Positions 9,100-37,442 of a stretch of DNA of 45,366 nt are shown in pieces (the stretch's first letter is position 1; each line of letters starts with the position of its first letter). This DNA comes from Candidatus Moraniibacteriota bacterium. Its GTDB lineage: Bacteria > Patescibacteriota > Minisyncoccia > Moranbacterales > UBA1568. Made by a program: the position numbers and the translations under genes. The notes below the pieces were generated by a model. The model saw nothing but the letters and a program-made list of their open reading frames with translations, did no database searches and was not told the DNA's origin. The DNA lies in assembly GCA_017983435.1 (NCBI GenBank), contig JAGOBM010000007.1:1-45366 (forward strand), given 5' to 3'.

Positions 9100-9600
9100 A
9101 GTGTGATACATTTTCTCAAATATTTCCAGACCTCCTTGCTGTAGATCTTTTCCGGGGGCGAAAGATATTTTTTTCTGTGTACTATCAATGATTCTCTTTC
9201 CACTGGTTTCCCAGACCAGAGCCTCTCCCTCCGGAGTATACTTGCCTCTAATTGGAGAAGATCCTGGGCCACGAGAAATTTTTTTCTTGCTGTACGCTCG
9301 GAAGCGTAGTGCATCGAAAAAATCTTTCTCGCAGCCCAGAATCTTCCTGACGCCGGATAGTATATGATACTCTTCCTGCTGACCTTCCGACTTCGCTGCG
9401 ACGTTGTGATACCACCCCTCGCCCAGCCAGCCAGAGATTTTTTCTGAAGCCCGAGGTGCTTTAAACCGATAGTGAGGAAAAAATTTACTGGCTGGGTGGA
9501 TGAGGGTCTGTATTATTTGGATTGATAATAAAAAAGTCTCAGAATATTTTTCGATGCGCTACGTTTCTCTGACATGCAGCAGTGGAGAGAGCTACTTTCG
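9100..9600. repeat. Intergenic region built from several diverged copies of a hairpin repeat family also present at 37247-37442
   Basis: The 24-nt core CTTGCTGTACGCTCGGAAGCGTAG at 9286-9309 is identical to 37383-37406. An AGAT-T6-C...GGAAAAAA module at 9434-9483 lies inside the stem CCAGCCAG/CTGGCTGG. Partial copies occur near 9131-9185 and 9541-9580. Confidence 0.55.
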
Positions 9601-10286: not shown

Positions 10287-10311
10287 GTCCCGTTACATTT
10301 TTGTATCGTGT

Positions 10312-10344
10312 AAGACCGCCTGAGAAGGGCGGTCTTTTCTTTTC
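10312..10344 (+). terminator. Intrinsic terminator
   Basis: AAGACCGCC/GGCGGTCTT 9-bp stem with loop TGAGAAG, then a TTTTCTTTTC tail. Confidence 0.75.
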
Positions 10345-10399
10345 TGGTTTCCTCACTCTTTTTGTGGTATACTTTCCTTGTATTCATATATTTTTTTGT

Positions 10400-11151
10400 A
10401 TGCCAAAACCCAATAAAGGCTCCATCCTCGTCTTCTCCCTCATCATCTTGAGTATCATCCTCTCCGCTGCCATCACGGTAGCTACCGTCTCAGTCACCAA
10501 CAAGCGTTCATCTAGTGCTACCGGCAAATCCGTTCAGTCTTTCCAAGTCGCTGACTCTGGTATGAACTCACCCTGCAAAAGATCTACAAAAACACCTACA
10601 CCGACCTCAACGCCATGGCCACCGGCATGGGAGGCGGAGCCTCCTGTTCCGGAGGAACTATCTCAAAGAACAATGTTGTCGGAGGAGCTATCAAAGTCTC
10701 CTTCTATGACAATGATGGGAATCTCCTCTCCTGTAGCGCTTCTGACTGGAGAGATAATGTTGTAAGAATCAAATCAGAAGGCTCTGCCTTCGGAACCACG
10801 CGAGTAGTGGAGACGGCGGTGGCGGCAGCCCCAATGGTTCCTAAAGTTTATAGTTGTACCGGAGGATCATCGTGTTCAGTAACGATACCAGCTTCTTCAA
10901 ATAAATTATTAGTGTTGGTCGATACCTACAATGGCTGCTGTGGAGGATCGGCAACTGGTACCATGAGGGTTACGGATAATCTTGGCAATACGCTTATTAC
11001 GGGTTCCTATAGTTACCATGGTGGTTGGGGAACTAGTAGTAGTGCGTCTCGAGTGGTGGAATCATCTTTTACTGGAAAAACTATCACGCTGTCTGTGAGT
11101 TACCCTGGTCGGCCTTCGGTCTCGCTCATCATTATGGAAGTGAGTCCGTGA
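10400..11151 (+). pseudogene. Pilin-like/pseudopilin-like secreted protein interrupted by a single-nucleotide frameshift near 10562-10565
   Basis: MPKPNKGSILVFSLIILSIILSAAI...SFQVADSG in frame A continues sensibly only in frame B (YELTLQKIYKNTYTDLNAMATGMGGG...). Frame A turns low-complexity, and frame B has a TGA at 10552-10554. Confidence 0.55.
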
Positions 11152-11174
11152 TAGGATGATTACTGAAGAAAGAA

Positions 11175-11200
11175 AACAGCGGCTACCCGCTGTTTTTTTT
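11175..11200 (+). terminator. Intrinsic terminator
   Basis: AACAGCGG/CCGCTGTT 8-bp stem with loop CTAC. The T8 run begins within the 3' arm. Confidence 0.8.
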
Positions 11201-11212
11201 GTTGATTTGGTA

Positions 11213-11241
11213 TTGACAAAAATGTGAAAAAACGCTACGAT
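11213..11241 (+). promoter_or_regulatory. Sigma70-like promoter (TTGACA-17-TACGAT)
   Basis: TTGACA at 11213-11218 and TACGAT at 11236-11241. Confidence 0.5.
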
Positions 11242-11247
11242 GAGGTG

Positions 11248-11441
11248 TCGTAAAATTGACAAAAAGAAGCGGGATCAGATTTCTGCCCTTAGGGTCCGAG
11301 GGAGGAACCCTCCTACCTCCCAAGGCGTAATCGAAGGGAACGCCGGTTTTCCGGAATACCCTTCGCCTTCAGGGCGGAAATCTGATCAACACTTCGTAAA
11401 CAAACACCGCTCTGACTTCAAAAGTCAGAGCGGTTTTGTTT
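11248..11441 (+). ncRNA. Candidate stand-alone structured RNA (three-way junction, possible pseudoknot), family unknown
   Basis: 17-bp closing helix 11273-11289/11371-11387 with one G-U pair. Internal hairpins AGGGT/ACCCT and AAGGC..GAAGGG..CCGG-TTTT-CCGG..CCCTTC..GCCTT. GGGAGG/CCTCCC are complementary. The terminator is 11407-11441. Confidence 0.5.
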
Positions 11442-11451
11442 GTGCCTGGTT

Positions 11452-11997
11452 TTAGAGCGGCTCGGTGATCAGTTTGGGGAGGGTTGGGAATATCTTTTGC
11501 AAGAGAGCGAGCTCGTCTGGAGAGAACGGATCGAGGACATAGTCATGGGCTGGTCGACAGACGCCTTCGGTCTCAGTCGGTCGGCCGATACCGAGCCGGA
11601 TGCGGAAGAAATCCTGGGTGCCGAGCATATCGATGATATCCTGTACGCCGTTGTGGCCGGCCGCTCGGGAAGAGAGGGTCGTTTTGTGTGTGCCTGGAGC
11701 GATATCGAGGTCGTCGTGCAGTACGATGATATCTTGGGCGGAGAGCTTGTAGAAATCGAGTAGGGCGCGGACAGTGCTGCCGGAGCGGTTCATGAAGGTA
11801 GTGGGCTTGATGAGGAGGTACTTCTCTTGGCCGATGGTACCGATGGAGAGCTCGGCGTGGAAACGGGTCTCGCGATGGAAGCTTTCGAAATCGAAATGCT
11901 CGCGGAGGAAATCAAGCGCGAGAAAGCCGGCATTGTGCCGGGTGGATGCGTATTGTTTGCCGGGATTACCGAGGCCGATGATGAGGCGCATAATCAA
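11452..11997 (-). CDS. pth: Peptidyl-tRNA hydrolase
   Basis: LIIGLGNPGKQYASTRHNAGF motif. The start may be the ATG at 11991. Confidence 0.9.
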   Translation of the reverse strand: MIMRLIIGLGNPGKQYASTRHNAGFLALDFLREHFDFESFHRETRFHAELSIGTIGQEKYLLIKPTTFMNRSGSTVRALLDFYKLSAQDIIVLHDDLDIAPGTHKTTLSSRAAGHNGVQDIIDMLGTQDFFRIRLGIGRPTETEGVCRPAHDYVLDPFSPDELALLQKIFPTLPKLITEPL

Positions 11998-12043
11998 CTG
12001 ACTTCTTTAAAAAATAGCGATGTGATTTTTTTAGAGATTCGAT

Positions 12044-12194
12044 ATTTCCAGGACCCTCGTCTCCCTCCGGAGTACATTCGCTCCGCCAGCGTCTCCGCTC
12101 TCTCATTTTCATCCTGCGCTCTTTGAGCTTCGCTCAAAACCGTGCCCGCTCCGGATGAAAAGGCCTCCTTGAAGGAAACGAGGGTCCTGGAAAT
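12044..12194. ncRNA. 151-nt structured element closed by a perfect 17-bp stem, between the LCP gene and pth (probably transcribed on the minus strand)
   Basis: ATTTCCAGGACCCTCGT (12044-12060) pairs with ACGAGGGTCCTGGAAAT (12178-12194). Inside are a 9-bp stem 12106-12114/12153-12161 and an apical hairpin TTTGAGC-TTC-GCTCAAA (12122-12138). Confidence 0.4.
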
Positions 12195-12245
12195 TCTCAA
12201 AGAGTCTTCATCTTCGGAAACCCAATGAATAATTATAAGTAGAGG

Positions 12246-21286: not shown

Positions 21287-24200
21287 ATGGACGTCAAACA
21301 CAAAACAAAAGCAACGGGAGCGTCTTGGCTATGGAGGCGGTTTTTTCGTTCTCTTTGGATGAGATATGCCCACGCGCGCACGCTCTTCCTGAAGAGCCGT
21401 GCAGTAGTGCGGAAGCCGAGGCAGCGCATGATCGTCGAGGCGGATAGTCTATCGGAATTTCTCTCAGAATATTCGGTGGCGGATAGGGAGAGCTATGGTG
21501 CGGCGTATCGTCGGCGCTATTATGTGGCGCTTGCCTGTCGGTACGCCGGCCGGAAACTGGCGTGGATCGGGAAGATAGTTAGACAAGCGGGGTGGCGCGG
21601 TGCTGTGGCGACAATCGGTATCGTGCTTGCAATCTATATCGGAGGTATCGGAGTCTCGAGCGCCCCTTTTGCTCGTTCGATCAGTACGGAGATGGAGTGG
21701 AGCGGAGGAGCATCCGACAATCTCTCTCTCGAGAGTGCAACAGATGCCATACAACTGGCATCACAGGGGAGTTGGTCAGCTCGCACGTGGGCGGTGCCGC
21801 CGGATACGGTGAGTGCTGGATCGAGTTCGGTATTCGTAGGGGATGACCTTTACGTCATGCGCGGTCTGTCCGACAAGGCATTCTGGAAGTATGATTCGGT
21901 TCTCAACGAATGGATCGAGCTCGAGGATCTGCCGTTTCCGGCCTACTATGGCGCGAGTATGACGAGCAACGGGAACAGCTTAATTTACGTGATTTTCGGC
22001 GGATATTCCAAGAAATTCTATCAGTACGATACAGCGACCGGAGATTGGACGGCGTTACCGGATCTGCTCGACACGACATGGACCGGCGCGAGCATCAGTT
22101 TTGATGGCACGAACCCGTATGTCTTGCGCGGCAATGCCAGTACAGATTTTTGGCGGTACAATGTGGCACTCGGTGAATGGCAGAGTCTTGCGCCGATTTC
22201 GGCCACGGCTTCGACCGGCGCGAGTCTGGTATACGGACAGGATGGGAATTTCTATACGCCGCGCGGGGCCAACACTCTGACGTTTTATCGATACAATGTC
22301 GCGACCAATACCTGGAGTGCGCGGACAAATATCACGACCGGATATACCTTTGGTGGTAATCAGCAGGGCGCGTACGCTAATGGCTTTATCTATTACCCGC
22401 GGTCTGCTTCCACGAACAGTCTTTTGCGATATGATATTGCTGGCAATAGCTGGGCAGTGCTGGCGGCTATGCCGGCGACCGCCAATGACACGCCGATCGC
22501 GTACAACGCCAATGACAATCAGCTGTACATGCTGCGCTCCGCTGGTACGTACGACCTGTGGAAATTCGACCCGACGCTCGGTGCGACTGGTGACTGGGTC
22601 GGCCCGCAGCAGGTGATGAACAATGCCTTCGGTATGGGGACCGGAAGCGACTTGCTTTGGAATGGTGTCACTGGGGCAGGCTCGTATGTCTATGCGGTCC
22701 GCGGAGGGACAGCCGGGTTCTATCGCTACGCGACCGCGACCAATACCTGGACGGCGCTGACCAATCTGCCGCTGGTGCCGACCGCTGACACCACTGGTAC
22801 GCTGATCGGAGACTATATCTATTATCCGCTCGGCAACAACACGACGACTTTCTATCGCTATACCATATCGACCAATACCTGGGCGGCGATGACGGTGCTG
22901 CCCGGCACGGCTTCGAATGGCGGCAGTGCAGCTTACAATGCTTCAGATGGGAAAGTGTATGTCTTGCGAGGGAACGGCACGGCGAATTTCTACAGCAGTC
23001 CCAATACGACGACGCTTGCTTGGACGACTCTCTCATCCACGGTGATCAGTGGCGTGACTTACAACAGCAATATCGGAGCTCGTCTGGTTTCGGATGGGAC
23101 GGATTTGTACGCGACAGTCGGCGATGGAGAGACGGCTTTCTTGAAGTACAGCACGGCAAGCAGCACTTGGTCCCGGGTGGCTTCGACACCGTTTGCCCAG
23201 TACTACGGTACGAGTCTCACGCATACGGGTGGTAAGATCTACGCGCTGGCCGGCTACTACAAGGATGAGGCTTGGGAATATACCATCGCGACCGATACGT
23301 GGCGCCAGCTGCCTTCCAATCAGAAATACCTCTATGGCCGCGGACCGTACAACGGTGCTGCGCTGGAGTATGCGGGCGGGAGCTCTTTCTACGCGCTGAC
23401 CGGGCTCGGGACGACGGATATGTGGAGCTTCACGGCGGGCACGGGGAGTTTCGTCAGCTCGGGCACCTATGTGAGCGAGCCACTCGATCTGGCGCAGGCA
23501 TCAGATTGGGTCTCGTTGGTCGCCAATGATACCGTTCCGGCCAATACAAGCGTCGTTTATGAGACTCGTTCCAGCACTGATGCTGCTTCCTGGTCGGCTT
23601 GGGAGACGGTGAGCGGGACGACGATCGCATCGCCGGCACAGCGCTATCTGCAGGTCCGGATCACGCTGGCGACCTCAGACGGGGTTTCGACACCAACCGT
23701 GACGGACTACACAATTACTTACAATAATTCCGATACACCGCCGACCAACCCGACAGCGGTCAATGCCTATTCGCAGAATGTCGGAGGAGTGACGCTCACA
23801 TCCGGCCAATCATATCCGCATGAGCATCCGTATTTCTCGTTTTCCGGCGCCGCGAGTCCGGAAGCGGGTATCGAGGGATACTATGTGTATTTCGGGACGA
23901 ATGCGAGTGCTGATCCAGCGGCCAGTGGCTCGTTTCAGACGGCTGCGACCTATGAGGTCAATCGGGCTCTGGACACCGGTACGTACTATCTGCGTATCAA
24001 GACGAAGGATAACAACGGCAATGTCAGTGCCGCTACCTACGCTGCCTTTACCTATGTGTACAATGGTGTCTCTCCGGCGCTGGTTGAAACGAAGACGAGT
24101 CAGGCGGAGTTCGCCGCCGGCACGCTGAGTGACCTCTCGTCTTCCGCCGTGCCGGATTCCTTGCGTCTCGCGCCGGTCAGCGGGACTGGATTCTGGAATC

Positions 24201-27200
24201 AGAGCCGATTGACCAATATGCTGGCGGCGGTCTCTTCTGGTGGCGACTCGGTCCGTGTGAATTACAGCGGCAATGAATATATCTACGCGTTGCGTGGTGC
24301 CGGCACGACCGGGTTTTATCGCTACGAGCTGGCGACGGATACCTGGACGGCTTTGGCAGTGACGCTCGGAACGGTGGGCTCGGGCGGATCGATTATTGCT
24401 GGGCCCAACGGAACGCTCTATGCGACGCAGGGCAACAACCTGCCGACTTTCTGGAAATATGATATCGCGACCAATATCTGGACAGCGGTCTCGAGCGCGC
24501 CGAAGAATTTCAATATCGGAGGATCGCTTTCCTATGACGGATCGCGCTATATCTACGGGCTTCCAGGGAGCGATGACGCCTTCTATCAGTACGATACGAC
24601 CAATAATCTTTGGACCGCCAAGGCCAACGCACAGTTCGGTAATCCGAACACGGTGGACGGACAGACGGTGAATTACGGATCCGACAGTGCCTATGACGGG
24701 CGCAACAATATCTATGTGCTGCAGGGGAATTATTACCCGTATCTCGCTCGGTATTCGATCGCGACCGATGCTGAGTATGGCGAGACGGCCAATACCTGGA
24801 CCGTGCTTTCTTCGGCACCGACCGGCATCTATACCGGCGGGAGTATCGCCTATGACGCGACGACCGAGAGTCTCTATGTGACGCGCGGCAACTGGAAGAA
24901 CAACTACTATCGGTACGTCATCGGCACGGATACGTGGTCTCAATTGCCCGATACGCCAGCCGGTTTTGATCAGGGTGCGACGCAGACGGTCTACGACGGA
25001 TATATCTATGCTCTGCGCGGAGCCAATACGGCAAATTTCTACCGGTACAATATCAGCGAGAGCTCGTGGGAGATTCCGGCCAAGGGACTGTTCGGACCGT
25101 CTATCCCGGGAGGGACTTCATATTTCCCCTTCTACTACGGCACCGCGACGACGAGCGATGGTGATGGGAATATCTACCTGATGCGCGGATATTATGACAA
25201 TGTGTTTGTGAAGTACAACGTCGCTACCGGTACGACGACTGAGATGGCTCGGCTGCCGGTCGGAGCCTATGACGGAGCCACGCTCAGCTATGCGGTCGAT
25301 CGCGATGAGATCTACTATTCTCCGGGGACGATCCGTACGACGCGGAGCGGTGCTGGGAATTATTTCTACAAATACGATGTCGCGACCAATACCTGGACCG
25401 AAATCACGACCGATAGGCCGCCGCTTCAGGTGGGGGCTGGATCGAGTATGACCTATGATGGCTCCCGCTATCTTTATCTCACCCGTGGCGCTGGAACGAC
25501 GACCTGGTGGCGTTATGATCTCGATGGCACCAACGGATCCCGCTGGTCGGCCCTGACAGTCAATGCATCGCTTGCGACGACAACCGGCGGGAGTATCGTC
25601 GCTTCGACGGGCTTCGTCTATGCGGTGCGCGGAGGGAACAACGCAATCTATCGCTACGATACAACCGGCGGCACCTGGTCGACTCTGCCGGTGATGCCAG
25701 CGACGATCACGACCGGTGGTAGCATGGTCGATGGTCAGGACGGATATCTCTATGTTGTGCGGGGCGGCAATACGTCGAGCAAGTATCGGTACCGCATCGC
25801 TGACGGTTTGTCGGGTACCTGGGAGAATGTGACGAATATTCCGGCTCAGGTGAATATCGGCGGTTTCATGCAGCAGGAAAAGGAGCGGAACTGGGTGATT
25901 GCCGGCAATGGTACCAACTCCTATCCGGACGGTCTGTACAGCTACGTGGTCAGCTCGGCTGCCAACGGAACCGGATTCAAGAAAGTCGGTACCTATACAT
26001 CCGAAGCGCTGGATCTCATCTCGGTCTATCGGTGGGGCAGTCTATCAGTCAACTTCACCCAGCCGGACCATACTTTTGTCTCGTTTGAGACGAGGGCTTC
26101 ATCTGATGGAGTGGATTGGTCGGCATGGGTCGCGGTTTCCAACGAGCAGATCTTCGGGACAGAACATGTCTACAAGATCAACTCATCGCCAGCGGGATAT
26201 ATGCAGGTGCGGGCGACGCTCACTTCATCGGATCAGATCTTCTCGCCGGCCATCGAAGACTACACGGTTAGCTATTATCAGGATATCGCAGCTCCGACCA
26301 ATCCGAGTGCGATCGGCGCCTACACCTCATCGGCGAAGACAACCTCGCTCACGACCGATACCTGGTACAATCATACGGGACCGTATTTCGAATGGCCGGC
26401 TGCCGAGACGGTCGGAGGGGCTTCGGATGGAACCGGCGGATCGGGTGTGGCGGGGTATTACGTGTATTTTGGGACGGATGTGAACGCGGATCCGGTCGCA
26501 TTTCAATCGGGTCATACGTATCAAGCAGGCAGTCTCTCGGCCGGACAGACATACTATCTCAAGATCTCGACCGAAGATCAGGCTGGTATGATATCGGCCG
26601 GCGCGTATGCGGCGTTTACCTACAAGTTCGACAATATCGCTCCGACCAATCCTTCGACGATCGGAGTGACACCGACGGGATATACCGCCATCGACAACTA
26701 CGCCTTCGTCTGGTCGCCCGATGCAGCTGATGCTTTTTCGGGTATCTCCAAGCTGCAGTACCGGACCGATGGTGATGTGCCGGATACCTGGGTCGATATT
26801 ACGAATGTGAGCCAGGTGTCGCTCTCGATTCCGAATGTCGATCATATCGTCGGAGCGTACCAGTCGGGGAAAAACAAATTCTATCTGCGCGTCGTGGACG
26901 GAGCTGGCAATGCTTCCGGAGCGATGATGCAGGAGTACTACTACAGTGCCAGCGCGCCGACACCGCCGCAGAATCTCGCGGTCACGCCGCTTACCTCGAC
27001 GGTCAACTCCTTTGCCTTCTCCTGGGATACTCCGGCTTCATTCGCCGGAGACGAAGCGGGTATCGTCTATCACTATTCGATCAATGTGCTGCCGACTGCC
27101 AATAATTCTGTGGCGACATCGGTGAAGGCGGCCGGACCGAGCGCTTTTGCGACGCAGAAGGGTGAAAACCTCTTCTTCGTGGTCGCTGAGGACGAAGCGG

Positions 27201-35627: not shown

Positions 35628-35679
35628 TATAGCGACAGCTTGCCAATCAGCAGATAACGTGTTACTGTTTTTTGTGATT

Positions 35680-35860
35680 AGAGCTTATCTCAAAATTCAT
35701 GCCGAGAGAAAATTTGAGAATTTCGAGCGAACGCTCTGAGAGATTCTGAAGGAATATAATATATTTCAAGGAATAGAGCAGAGCGTGCAGCCGAAATTCT
35801 CAGATTTTAACCGGCAAGCGATGGTTGTGTACTTGGGCGGTGAATTTTGAGATAAGCTCT
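35680..35860. ncRNA. 181-nt extended imperfect hairpin (6S-RNA-like architecture or MITE-like inverted repeat) upstream of ndk
   Basis: Perfect 19-bp outer stem 35680-35698/35842-35860, a 17-bp stem 35709-35725/35792-35808 (one G-U pair), and a 7-bp stem 35732-35738/35779-35785. The internal loop is asymmetric (10/33 nt). Confidence 0.45.
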
Positions 35861-35889
35861 TAGATAATTCTTGAAGCGCAAAAAGTCCT

Positions 35890-37246: not shown

Positions 37247-37442
37247 TGGATTGGCCGCGAAAGATGATTTTTCCGATGCCGTGTTCTGACGCCAAGCAAG
37301 GAAAAAACGCTTTCGCGGCCAATCCAGAGAGGGTGTTTAAAAATGTATGGCCCGTCTGCCGAGGTACGAAACAGATTTTTTCCTTGCTGTACGCTCGGAA
37401 GCGTAGGGCATCAGAAAAAACCTCTTCCGCACCTCGGCAGAC
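37247..37442. repeat. Two adjacent hairpin elements of the repeat family shared with 9100-9600
   Basis: 17-bp stem 37247-37263/37310-37326 enclosing TTTTTCC/GGAAAAA. 12-bp stem 37354-37365/37431-37442 enclosing T6-CCTTGCTG-TACGC-TCGGAA-GCGTA-GGGCATCAG-A6. Confidence 0.55.

What the first reader, a model, noticed from the sequence alone, without database searches (positions are those of the whole stretch)
11213..11441. Second stand-alone structured RNA gene: three-way junction with possible pseudoknot, own promoter and terminator
The promoter TTGACA-17-TACGAT (11213-11241) is followed by a 17-bp closing helix, GATCAGATTTCTGCCCT (11273-11289) paired with AGGGCGGAAATCTGATC (11371-11387), with one G-U pair.

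Two arms lie inside:
- AGGGT(11291-11295)/ACCCT(11307-11311).
- A coaxial arm made of AAGGC(11322-11326)/GCCTT(11365-11369), GAAGGG(11333-11338)/CCCTTC(11359-11364) and CCGG-TTTT-CCGG (11343-11354).

The first arm's loop contains GGGAGG (11300-11305), complementary to CCTCCC (11316-11321) in the junction. This could form a pseudoknot or an alternative hairpin.

The terminator CCGCTCTGACT/AGTCAGAGCGG (11407-11433) plus TTTTGTTT ends the unit. The next gene (pth) is on the opposite strand, so this is not a 5' leader. I found no match to the SRP, 6S, tmRNA or RNase P signatures I know.
Basis: partly seen in the sequence, partly recalled or inferred. Interest (0 to 1): 0.6.

Follow-up and report, generated by a model that had tools for sequence, protein, structure and literature searches.

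The report
New small RNA showing anti-Shine-Dalgarno loop
This is a real, separately transcribed small RNA gene of a family not yet catalogued, found in many ultra-small (CPR) bacteria, whose most conserved part is an exposed loop that copies the ribosome's mRNA-docking sequence, so it probably controls translation.

Summary
The promoter (11213-11241), long closing helix, internal arms and terminator (11406-11434) are all present. The fold is far more stable than shuffles (z = -11.6) and nothing in Rfam 15 matches.

It is a single-copy gene on the + strand. It is conserved in 9 of 9 same-genus genomes. With an iterated covariance model it was found in 48 of 151 genomes of the order, and sporadically in the rest of the class and phylum (Patescibacteria; relatives are titled Moranbacteria).

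Covariation is strong: 48 of 53 pairs show compensatory changes. It supports:
- a 27-bp P1;
- an optional P3.

The P2 loop always carries CCUCC(U), the anti-Shine-Dalgarno / 16S 3'-tail sequence, and is predicted unpaired. The gene is usually convergent with pth. In some lineages a small SD-led ORF follows directly.

It is not SRP RNA or 6S by the tests run, and tmRNA and 5S lie elsewhere in the genome.

Most likely it is an SD-pairing translational regulator. That mechanism is inferred, not shown; no RNA-seq data were available.

The parts
11169..11200 (+). Intrinsic terminator of the upstream (PilX_N-like / unknown) gene. It separates that gene from the RNA unit.
   Evidence: 14-pair stem plus T run. 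Upstream ORFs are listed; the weak PilX_N match is.
11213..11241 (+). Promoter: -35 TTGACA (11213-11218), 17-nt spacer, -10 TACGAT (11236-11241). The inferred transcription start is near 11248.
   Evidence: The -35 and most of the -10 are invariant in all 10 genomes of the genus (A1). A TTGAC-type -35 and TAnnnT -10 were found upstream of 43 of 51 and 14 of 20 homologues. The start site itself is inferred, not measured.
11266..11292 (+). P1, 5' strand.
   Evidence: Family model mapped onto the window. 24 of 27 P1 pairs show compensatory change in A9.
11293..11305 (+). P2, 5' strand: base around 11294-11297, internal loop, then GGGAGG at 11300-11305.
   Evidence: 12 of 13 P2 pairs show compensatory change.
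11306..11315 (+). P2 apical loop AACCCUCCUA. This is the anti-Shine-Dalgarno-like, 16S 3'-tail-like motif and the most conserved part of the RNA.
   Evidence: CCUCC is present in 51 of 51 and 20 of 20 homologous loci. Predicted unpaired probability is 0.91 here, and at least 0.8 in 39 of 46 homologues. The 16S 3' end of this genome reads ...AUCACCUCCUUUCUA.
11316..11327 (+). P2, 3' strand: CCUCCC at 11316-11321, internal loop, then the base at 11324-11327.
11328..11331 (+). Junction J2/3: UAAU here, GAAA(U) in most other genera.
   Evidence: Alignments A5, A7 and A9.
11332..11365 (+). P3 hairpin: CG, GAAGGG/CCCUUC and CCGG-UUUU-CCGG. Its sequence varies and it is missing altogether in short forms of the family.
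   Evidence: 11 of 11 upper P3 pairs show compensatory change. Forms of about 80-103 nt without P3 appear in L051, L052, L053, L063, L065, L066 and L073.
11367..11395 (+). P1, 3' strand, with the conserved GAAA box at 11377-11380.
11406..11441 (+). Intrinsic terminator: 13-bp stem at 11406-11434 plus U tract. It is bidirectional and also serves the convergent pth gene.
   Evidence: scored on both strands. Every genus member has its own, different terminator hairpin at this place (A1).
11452..11997 (-). pth (peptidyl-tRNA hydrolase), convergent with the RNA. It is the conserved neighbour of the RNA across the phylum.
   Evidence: Pfam PF01195, E = 2e-54. A convergent pth lies downstream of the RNA in 33 of 39, 8 of 20 and 3 of 3 further loci.

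Best explanation
The region is an independently transcribed small non-coding RNA gene. The primary transcript is inferred to run from about 11248 to 11441 (about 190 nt) with a structured core at 11266-11395. It belongs to an uncatalogued family that is widespread in one order of Patescibacteria and occurs sporadically elsewhere in the phylum.

The RNA is a rigid scaffold. A P1 helix of about 27 bp stacks on a P2 hairpin, and there is an optional P3 arm. The one invariant feature of this scaffold is a roughly 10-nt apical loop reading A-Y-C-C-C-U-C-C-U-A, which has the same sequence as the anti-Shine-Dalgarno end of 16S rRNA.

I infer that this loop pairs with GGAGG-type Shine-Dalgarno sites of mRNAs and blocks 30S binding. 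In lineages where a small SD-led ORF follows directly, it would act in cis. In this genome, where only a terminator follows, it would act in trans.

What is shown: the gene, its strand, its structure, its conservation, the loop motif and the gene context. What is inferred: expression, targets and the pairing mechanism.
For: Gene and strand:
- The promoter and a private terminator are conserved in all 10 genus members.
- A promoter motif lies upstream in 43 of 51 and 14 of 20 homologues.
- In paired columns there are 184 G-U/U-G cells against 42 A-C/C-A cells.
- Covariance-model scores are far higher on the + strand, 113 against 30.7 bits in the window.
- The element is single copy in the 794,606-bp genome.

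Structure:
- A7, a MAFFT alignment of 12 sequences from other genera: 87.7% of cells paired against 36-51% when partners are slid, and 39 of 53 pairs show compensatory change.
- A9, 29 sequences: 88.0% against 36-49%, and 48 of 53 pairs.

Distribution:
- 9 of 9 genus genomes.
- 48 of 151 genomes of the order, in 10 of 12 families, with model R3.
- 11 of 151 genomes of the class, including 5 from other orders.
- 7 of 151 phylum genomes matched. These include G000 itself and G039 of the same order, and one (G349) is a plain hairpin, which leaves four genomes outside the class.

Loop:
- CCUCC is present in 51 of 51 and 20 of 20 loci.
- It is predicted unpaired (probability at least 0.8) in 39 of 46 homologues.
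- The genome's own 16S ends ...CACCUCCUUUCUA, and many genes carry AAGGAGGUG-type SDs.

Cis cases:
- In L059, L060, L062, L156, L157 and L158 a strong SD and the start codon of a 48-131 aa ORF begin 11-33 nt after P1 (ORF listings). By inspection these ORFs are hydrophobic.
- By inspection, in L062, L158 and L163 the SD region is complementary to 8-9 nt of the loop (sequences).

Precedent: unpaired C-rich (UCCC) loop motifs of RsaE-type sRNAs bind mRNAs and prevent formation of the initiation complex (PMC2790875, abstract read).
Against: - There are no expression data. No RNA run was listed.
- No specific target stands out in this genome. Only generic SD sites match the loop, and the few 9-nt matches lead to no convincing ORFs.
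- A loop that fits every SD gives no specificity unless the RNA is very abundant.
- Ordinary base-pairing sRNAs are rarely conserved in architecture over such phylogenetic depth, nor so constantly placed beside one gene (pth). That pattern points to a protein partner or a link with pth.
- P1 and the junction carry conserved boxes (UUUC/GAAA, junction AG, GAAA) that the pairing model does not explain.
- The junction AGG could mask the loop CCU. This alternative can be drawn in 25-28 of 29 sequences.
- A9 was fitted to the model, so its pair counts lean towards the structure. A7 was not fitted to a model, but I chose its structure by eye from the same alignment.
Confidence: 0.4

Rival explanations
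1. The RNA is functionally tied to pth. It could be a convergent cis-antisense partner, or a partner that shares a terminator, so that read-through or 3'-end overlap controls pth mRNA. Alternatively it could form a complex with the Pth protein in translation quality control.
For: - A convergent pth lies within about 1.5 kb downstream in 33 of 39 loci.
- The same holds in 8 of 20 further loci of the order and in 3 of 3 further phylum-level hits.
- Meanwhile the upstream neighbour changes (L25 gene, dprA, pilin-like gene).
- The gap between the RNA core and the pth stop codon is under 100 nt in 19 of 30 loci, and is 8 nt and -16 nt in two of them.
- In this window one hairpin scores as a terminator on both strands.
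Against: - Pth is not adjacent in 12 of 20 loci from other families of the order.
- One close relative has L25 and pth with only a plain terminator between them (L071).
- In this window a strong terminator separates the two genes, so overlap would be limited to the terminator itself.
- This idea does not explain the invariant CCUCCU loop.
- Related genomes are not independent observations, so part of the synteny may simply be inherited.
Confidence: 0.22
2. The RNA is a protein-binding decoy. Its loop mimics the single-stranded 3' tail of 16S rRNA and titrates or regulates a factor that normally recognises that tail, such as a KH-domain assembly GTPase of the Era type, a 3'-end maturation nuclease or a hibernation factor.
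For: - The loop plus closing pairs read GAUCACCCCUCCUAC in one genus and GAUCCUCCUUAC in family f10, and AUCCUCCUUAA in others. These resemble the 16S end ...AUCACCUCCUUUCUA beyond the CCUCC core.
- Conserved boxes in P1 and the junction suggest recognition of shape.
- Deep conservation, single copy and a near-consensus promoter fit a housekeeping RNA-protein complex.
- That Era binds GAUCACCUCC is recalled knowledge. It was not tested here.
Against: - No candidate protein was tested.
- The motif sits in a closed 10-nt hairpin loop, not at a free 3' end.
- No protein gene other than pth co-occurs next to the RNA.
Confidence: 0.15
3. The RNA is a cis-regulatory leader, such as a riboswitch or a type-I-toxin-style 5' UTR, for the small membrane ORF that follows it in some lineages. 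In this genome it would be a remnant that has lost its ORF.
For: - SD-led ORFs that look hydrophobic start 11-33 nt after P1 in 6 of the 14 non-f1 loci examined. Further cases appear (for example L163).
- By inspection, the loop is complementary to those SDs.
- The three-way junction carries conserved junction nucleotides.
Against: - In the whole family f1, including 10 of 10 genus members, a terminator follows and the next gene is on the other strand. Yet the RNA, its promoter and its loop are fully conserved, so it works without a downstream ORF.
- The downstream ORFs have no Pfam family and show no evident similarity to each other by eye.
- P3 and the junction are dispensable in the short forms, which argues against a ligand pocket.
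Confidence: 0.1
4. The RNA is a very divergent version of a universal housekeeping RNA: SRP RNA, 6S RNA, 5S rRNA or tmRNA.
For: - SRP RNA and 6S RNA models find nothing in these genomes, so those roles look unfilled.
- The RNA is single copy, strongly promoted and broadly conserved.
- It lies next to the L25 (5S-binding protein) gene in most f1 genomes.
Against: - 5S rRNA is elsewhere in G000 at C8:17702-17814, 84.6 bits.
- tmRNA with smpB is elsewhere in G000 at C2:51700-52099, and in 5 of 5 genomes tested.
- No SRP54-type GTPase or Ffh M domain is present for an SRP RNA to bind.
- There is no GNRA-capped helix 8 with symmetric and asymmetric loops.
- There is no two-stranded central bubble as in 6S. 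The 5' side of the junction has 0 unpaired nucleotides.
- No Rfam hit at E <= 10 here or at E <= 0.01 on 20 homologous loci.
Confidence: 0.03

Closest known systems
C-rich-loop sRNAs of Firmicutes (RsaE/RoxS type, 'UCCC motif' class; PMC2790875, abstract read)
   Same: - A stand-alone sRNA with its own promoter and intrinsic terminator.
- An unpaired C-rich motif displayed in a hairpin loop and complementary to Shine-Dalgarno sequences.
- The proposed action is blocking of initiation-complex formation.
   Different: - No sequence or model similarity: no Rfam hit of any kind.
- One loop with the full CCUCCU anti-SD rather than several UCCC motifs.
- A P1 scaffold of about 27 bp and an optional three-way junction.
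- Conserved across an order and into other classes of Patescibacteria.
- Constant convergent position next to pth.
- Target pairing is not demonstrated.
3' tail of 16S rRNA (anti-Shine-Dalgarno sequence)
   Same: The CCUCCU core and, in several lineages, flanking letters (GAUC...CCUCCUUA) match the 16S 3' end.
   Different: - The motif is in a closed hairpin loop of a separate RNA of about 130 nt, not at a free 3' end of the ribosome.
- The genome's 16S still has its own anti-SD, so the RNA is not a replacement.
Anti-SD elements in mRNA leaders (SD-sequestering 5' UTRs of riboswitches and type I toxin mRNAs)
   Same: In some lineages the RNA lies directly 5' of a small ORF that looks hydrophobic, and the strong SD of that ORF can pair with the loop.
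   Different: - In this genome and all of family f1 there is no downstream ORF.
- The element has its own terminator.
- No antisense antitoxin or ligand pocket is evident.
6S RNA / SRP RNA (long-hairpin housekeeping RNAs)
   Same: Size class, long helix formed by the 5' and 3' ends, single copy, strong promoter, broad conservation.
   Different: Defining features were tested and not met (see the membership test).

Membership tests
Any Rfam 15 family | Covariance-model match at or near the family's gathering score. | tested here: not met
   - Whole window at gathering score: only a tRNA.
- 11100-11500 at E <= 10: the best core-overlapping hit is 13.4 bits against a cut-off of 58.6.
- 20 homologous loci at E <= 0.01: nothing overlaps the RNA.
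Bacterial SRP RNA (RF00169 / RF01854) | Model match. Helix 8 with a GNRA tetraloop and conserved symmetric and asymmetric loops (the feature list is recalled). | tested here: not met
   - No match in G000 at E <= 10.
- No match in 5 relatives with RF00169, or in G000 plus 4 relatives with RF01854, both at E <= 1.
- The loops here are AACCCUCCUA and UUUU.
Bacterial SRP RNA | A partner protein Ffh with an M domain is encoded in the genome. | tested here: not met
   - PF02978: 0 of 5.
- PF00448: 0 of 5, 0 of 151 in the phylum, and only 4 weak P-loop-only hits in 81 genomes of the order.
- E. coli Ffh as query: 0 of 5, and best E = 1.7 by local tblastn.
- SecY control: 5 of 5.
6S RNA (RF00013) | Model match. 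A large central bubble with unpaired nucleotides on both strands between two long stems (the feature is recalled). | tested here: not met
   - RF00013: 0 of 5, and no hit.
- The junction has 0 unpaired nucleotides on the 5' side and 1 on the 3' side.
5S rRNA (RF00001) | Model match, and being the only 5S candidate in the genome. | tested here: not met
   - A true 5S is at G000:C8:17702-17814, 84.6 bits.
- There is no 5S hit on this region.
- Short forms of the family lack the third arm.
tmRNA (RF00023) | tRNA-like domain and tag reading frame, next to smpB. | tested here: not met
   tmRNA is at G000:C2:51700-52099 (110.8 bits), next to smpB at C2:52198-52623.
SD-targeting C-rich-loop sRNAs (functional class, not a homology family) | A stand-alone transcript with an unpaired C-rich motif complementary to the SD. 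| tested here: met
   - Promoter and terminator.
- Loop CCUCCU is invariant and predicted unpaired.
- Expression itself was not tested.
SD-targeting C-rich-loop sRNAs | Demonstrated pairing with mRNA ribosome-binding sites and inhibition of initiation. | not testable with these tools
   Only generic complementarity to SDs was seen. No specific target was found.
Riboswitch / cis-regulatory leader | Located in the 5' UTR of a regulated gene on the same strand. | tested here: not met
   In this window a terminator and then the convergent pth follow. The same holds in all f1 loci inspected. The feature is met only in some other lineages.

The most novel reading that the evidence does not exclude
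The RNA is a housekeeping-type mimic of the 16S rRNA 3' tail that has been kept next to pth in lineages across Patescibacteria. It would be a free anti-Shine-Dalgarno module working in translation control or quality control. For example, it could globally mask strong SD sites, leaving SD-less genes such as pth untouched, or it could act with Pth or with a factor that binds the 16S 3' end. It would not be an ordinary target-specific sRNA.
Probability: 0.2. Interest if true: 0.85.

Novelty: new variant of a known kind. Interest (0 to 1): 0.66.

Why it matters
CPR/Patescibacteria bacteria have tiny genomes and few known regulators, and I found no regulatory RNA described for them in my searches.

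A single-copy RNA with a strong promoter and heavy covariation would be one of the first lineage-wide non-coding RNAs defined for this group. It was detected in 48 of 151 genomes of one order, and in other orders and classes.

Its invariant feature is a displayed copy of the ribosome's anti-Shine-Dalgarno sequence. That gives a directly testable idea of how these organisms may tune translation initiation.

The unusually stable convergent linkage to peptidyl-tRNA hydrolase suggests a tie to translation quality control.

The alignment and covariance model built here are enough to seed an Rfam family and to look for the transcript in metatranscriptomes.

Tried and rejected
- Chance hairpin, repeat or mobile element: rejected. 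The element is single copy in the genome and belongs to no repeat family in the window. Conservation with compensatory changes is shown.
- Minus-strand RNA, i.e. a pth 3' UTR: rejected. Evidence is the G-U excess, the + strand model scores and the conserved + strand promoter.
- Coding region: a 71-aa ORF (11240-11455) overlaps the RNA. The genus alignment has single-base indels inside it, and the substitutions follow base pairing. I did not run a formal coding test.
- SRP RNA, 6S, 5S, tmRNA: see the membership test.
- Pseudoknot AGGGU/ACCCU: no covariation. Not excluded.
- Loop-receptor idea: I considered that the P3 U-rich loop docks on the conserved UUUC/GAAA box of P1. I dropped it because forms lacking P3 keep a similar box.
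- Specific trans targets in G000: extended complements of the loop gave no convincing ORFs.
- Expression: no RNA holder was listed by the look-up of sequencing runs. I did not use read laying because all listed runs were DNA.
- ARAGORN found no tmRNA in G000, but the Rfam model did. The ARAGORN blank was a false negative.
- Literature: eight full-text searches found no description of this RNA. Terms included 'candidate phyla radiation' + 'noncoding RNA' + 'covariation', 'Patescibacteria' + 'small RNA' + 'anti-Shine-Dalgarno', 'Moranbacteria' + ncRNA terms, and 'Parcubacteria' + 'RNA motif'. Searches on SRP in CPR are.
- Sensitivity caveat: genome searches over more than 40 genomes used strict filters, so 'not found' is not 'absent'.
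- Counting caveat: some loci from genome contigs (L072, L075, L076) show the same loop and promoter strings as loci from the genome search (L049, L052, L042) and may be the same genomes. They are counted twice in the 51.
Full report
**1. The observation**

- The consensus scan finds TTGACA-17-TACGAT at 11213-11241, matching 10 of 12 positions.
- It finds a 13-bp terminator at 11406-11434 that scores on both strands.
- It finds a separate terminator for the upstream gene at 11169-11200.
- The 17-bp helix 11273-11289 / 11371-11387 is part of inverted repeat I21.

The + strand of 11262-11445 folds at -97 kcal/mol. Shuffles average -52.6 +/- 3.8, so z = -11.6, and 0 of 200 shuffles fold as well. 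The minus strand folds nearly as well (z = -9.7), so energy alone does not decide the strand.

Rfam 15 gives only a tRNA in the whole window at gathering score. Nothing near threshold appears at E <= 10 in 11100-11500.

**2. It is a conserved gene, not a chance hairpin**

The element is single copy in the 794,606-bp, 9-contig genome, which is 91% complete.

A DNA search finds it in 9 of 9 genomes of the same genus, with the best nine matches at E of 1e-16 to 1e-40 and 77-87% identity.

In the alignment with flanks (A1):
- the -35 TTGACA is invariant;
- the -10 is TATAAT in most members;
- each genome has its own, different terminator hairpin after the core.

That is the signature of an independent transcription unit.

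A regular-expression count finds a TTGAC-type -35 and TAnnnT -10 within 90 nt upstream in 43 of 51 collected homologues, and in 14 of 20 more. A few of the 51 may be the same genome fetched from two collections.

**3. Strand**

In the paired columns of the 29-sequence alignment there are 184 G-U/U-G cells against 42 A-C/C-A cells.

The covariance models score the + strand far higher, for example 113 against 30.7 bits in the window.

The RNA is therefore on the + strand, convergent with pth (11452-11997, minus strand; Pfam PF01195, E = 2e-54).

**4. Structure**

I built three covariance models in turn.
- R1, from the genus only. It found the RNA in 25 of 107 genomes of the family, G000 included.
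- R2, from a MAFFT alignment of 12 sequences from other genera (A7), with a structure I set by hand.
- R3, from 29 sequences aligned to R2 (A9).

On A7, which was not fitted to any model:
- 87.7% of cells are standard pairs, against 36-51% when partners are slid;
- 39 of 53 pairs show a change on both sides;
- 0 of 500 shuffles reach the observed values.

On A9, which was fitted to the model and so leans towards it, the figures are 88.0% against 36-49%, and 48 of 53 pairs.

Mapped onto the window, the structure is:
- P1: 11266-11292 with 11367-11395.
- P2: 11293-11305 with 11316-11327.
- P2 loop: 11306-11315.
- J2/3: 11328-11331.
- P3: 11332-11346 with 11351-11365.
- One unpaired base before P1 closes.

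The AGGGT/ACCCT arm joins two invariant stretches. It can form in most sequences at its first three pairs, falling to 19 of 29 and 14 of 28 for the last two, with no compensatory change. AAGGC/GCCTT fails outside the genus.

P3 is absent in short forms of about 80-103 nt (L051, L052, L053, L063, L065, L066, L073). The junction is therefore not essential to the family.

**5. What is invariant**

Helices vary freely. Conserved letters are:
- a UUUC/GAAA box in the middle of P1;
- the junction A-G and its partners C-U;
- GAAA in J2/3;
- above all, the P2 loop.

CCUCC occurs in the loop in 51 of 51 and 20 of 20 loci, mostly as A-Y-CCCUCCU-A or AUCCUCCUUA.

The partition function predicts these five bases unpaired with probability at least 0.8 in 39 of 46 homologues. 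The median is 1.0, against 0.29 for the whole RNA.

The genome's own 16S rRNA ends ...GGAUGAAUCACCUCCUUUCUAGGGAG, and many genes are preceded by AAGGAGGUG-type sites. The loop is thus a displayed copy of the anti-Shine-Dalgarno sequence. In several lineages the flanking letters resemble the 16S tail as well (GAUCACCCCUCCUAC, GAUCCUCCUUAC).

**6. Distribution**

With R3 the RNA was found in:
- 48 of 151 genomes of the order, in 10 of 12 families. R2 had found 19 of 151.
- 11 of 151 genomes of the class, five of them from other orders.
- 7 of 151 genomes sampled across the phylum. These include G000 itself and G039 of the same order, and one (G349) is a plain hairpin and a false positive, so four lie outside the class.

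All these searches used Infernal's strict filters, and sensitivity rose with each broader model, so the numbers are lower bounds.

Public records of the closest relatives, found through Pth, are titled Candidatus Moranbacteria or Moraniibacteriota.

Among 80 pth loci from that scan, R3 hit six. All six carry Patescibacteria-type titles or are mislabelled metagenome bins. None of the Saccharimonadales, Streptococcus or Melainabacteria loci was hit.

**7. Context**

In most genomes of family f1 the gene order is: zinc-ribbon ORF, L25/TL5 gene (PF01386 + PF14693), RNA, then convergent pth and an LCP gene (PF03816). In this window the upstream gene is instead a pilin-like or unknown ORF.

The upstream neighbour differs in other families (dprA, topA), but pth stays. 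It is convergent and within about 1.5 kb in:
- 33 of 39 loci. One of the six misses, L044, has a pth with a variant motif, and another, L048, is a truncated locus.
- 8 of 20 further loci of the order.
- 3 of 3 new phylum-level hits.

The gap between the RNA core and the pth stop codon is under 100 nt in 19 of 30 loci. Related genomes are not independent, so this is not a statistical test. Still, linkage that survives changes of the other neighbour across classes suggests a functional tie.

In six lineages an SD-led ORF of 48-131 aa starts 11-33 nt after P1 (ORF listings), and more such cases appear. By inspection these ORFs are hydrophobic. Two of them have no Pfam family.

**8. What it is not**

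- 5S rRNA and tmRNA with smpB are found elsewhere in the genome with good scores. This also shows that Rfam models work on these genomes.
- SRP RNA and 6S models find nothing, and the RNA lacks their defining features.
- No SRP54-type GTPase, Ffh M domain or Ffh homologue was found in any genome tested. SecY was found in 5 of 5.
- It is not a riboswitch leader in this genome, because no gene follows on the same strand.

**9. Mechanism**

The best-supported reading is that the scaffold presents an exposed anti-SD loop that pairs with SD sites and blocks 30S binding. It would act in cis where an SD-led ORF follows and in trans here. This is the mechanism shown for UCCC-loop sRNAs such as RsaE (PMC2790875, abstract read).

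Shown: the gene, its strand, its structure, the motif, its predicted accessibility and the context. Inferred: expression, pairing and the effect on translation.

Points against this reading:
- no specific target was found;
- no RNA-seq data were available;
- the conserved boxes in P1 and the junction are unexplained;
- the pth linkage is unexplained.

I therefore give it 0.4. The rivals are a link to pth (0.22), a protein-binding mimic of the 16S tail (0.15), a cis leader (0.10) and a divergent housekeeping RNA (0.03).

**10. Novelty**

No Rfam 15 family matches the RNA in the window or in 20 diverse homologues. Eight full-text literature searches found no description (one search was for the comparison class).

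I rate it a new RNA family whose presumed mode of action is a variant of a known kind.

Noticed in passing
whole genome G000 and sampled relatives (not in the window): No signal recognition particle components could be detected.
- PF00448 (the GTPase domain shared by Ffh and FtsY): 0 of 151 genomes sampled across the phylum at E <= 1e-10, and only 4 weak P-loop-only hits in 81 genomes of the order.
- Ffh M domain: 0 of 5.
- TIGR00959: no true hit in 5.
- E. coli Ffh as query: 0 of 5, and best E = 1.7 by local tblastn on G000.
- SRP RNA models: 0 of 5-6.
- Positive controls worked: SecY 5 of 5, tmRNA and SmpB 5 of 5.

I found no paper stating this. From memory I expected these genes to be present, so this needs an independent check.
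   Followed up: partly
window 11998-12245 (- strand): The 248-nt spacer between the LCP gene and pth folds into one long hairpin. The arms are 12044-12067 and 12171-12194 (24 nt, 92% complementary); z = -4.67. In the same-genus loci where I looked (for example L038), pth follows the LCP gene within a few bases, so this looks like an insertion or a 5' UTR structure specific to this genome.
   Followed up: partly
window 35660-35880 (+): Another very stable long-hairpin region. There is a perfect 20-bp outer helix (35680-35699 / 35841-35860) and a 30-nt inner pair (35709-35738 / 35779-35808). It folds at -89.5 kcal/mol, z = -8.57. It has no CCUCC loop and no Rfam hit at gathering score.
   Followed up: partly
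window 9278-9322 and 37375-37419: A 45-nt direct repeat, 91% identical. Each copy lies inside or beside an inverted repeat (9301-9321 / 9547-9567 and 37354-37382 / 37414-37442). This could be a small repeated intergenic element.
   Followed up: no
window 10301-10765 and 10615-11151 (+): The gene upstream of the RNA is read as two overlapping ORFs in different frames. The first has a weak PilX_N match (23.3 bits against a cut-off of 25.5). The second has no Pfam family. This could be a frameshift, an assembly error or two genes.
   Followed up: no
window about 22000-25700 (+): Many copies of a repeat of 50-72 nt (families D1-D4 and D8) spaced at multiples of about 132-135 nt. It looks like a protein-coding tandem domain repeat inside a very large gene.
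   Followed up: no
G000:C2:51700-52099: ARAGORN reported no tmRNA in the whole genome, but the Rfam tmRNA model finds one at 110.8 bits next to smpB. ARAGORN misses the tmRNA of this lineage.
   Followed up: yes
L030-L066 and L151-L160: pth start regions: By inspection, none of the 30 pth genes next to the RNA shows a GGAGG-type Shine-Dalgarno site in the 30 nt before the start codon. Many start within a few bases of the LCP gene's stop codon. This suggests translational coupling and means pth would escape an SD-masking regulator.
   Followed up: partly
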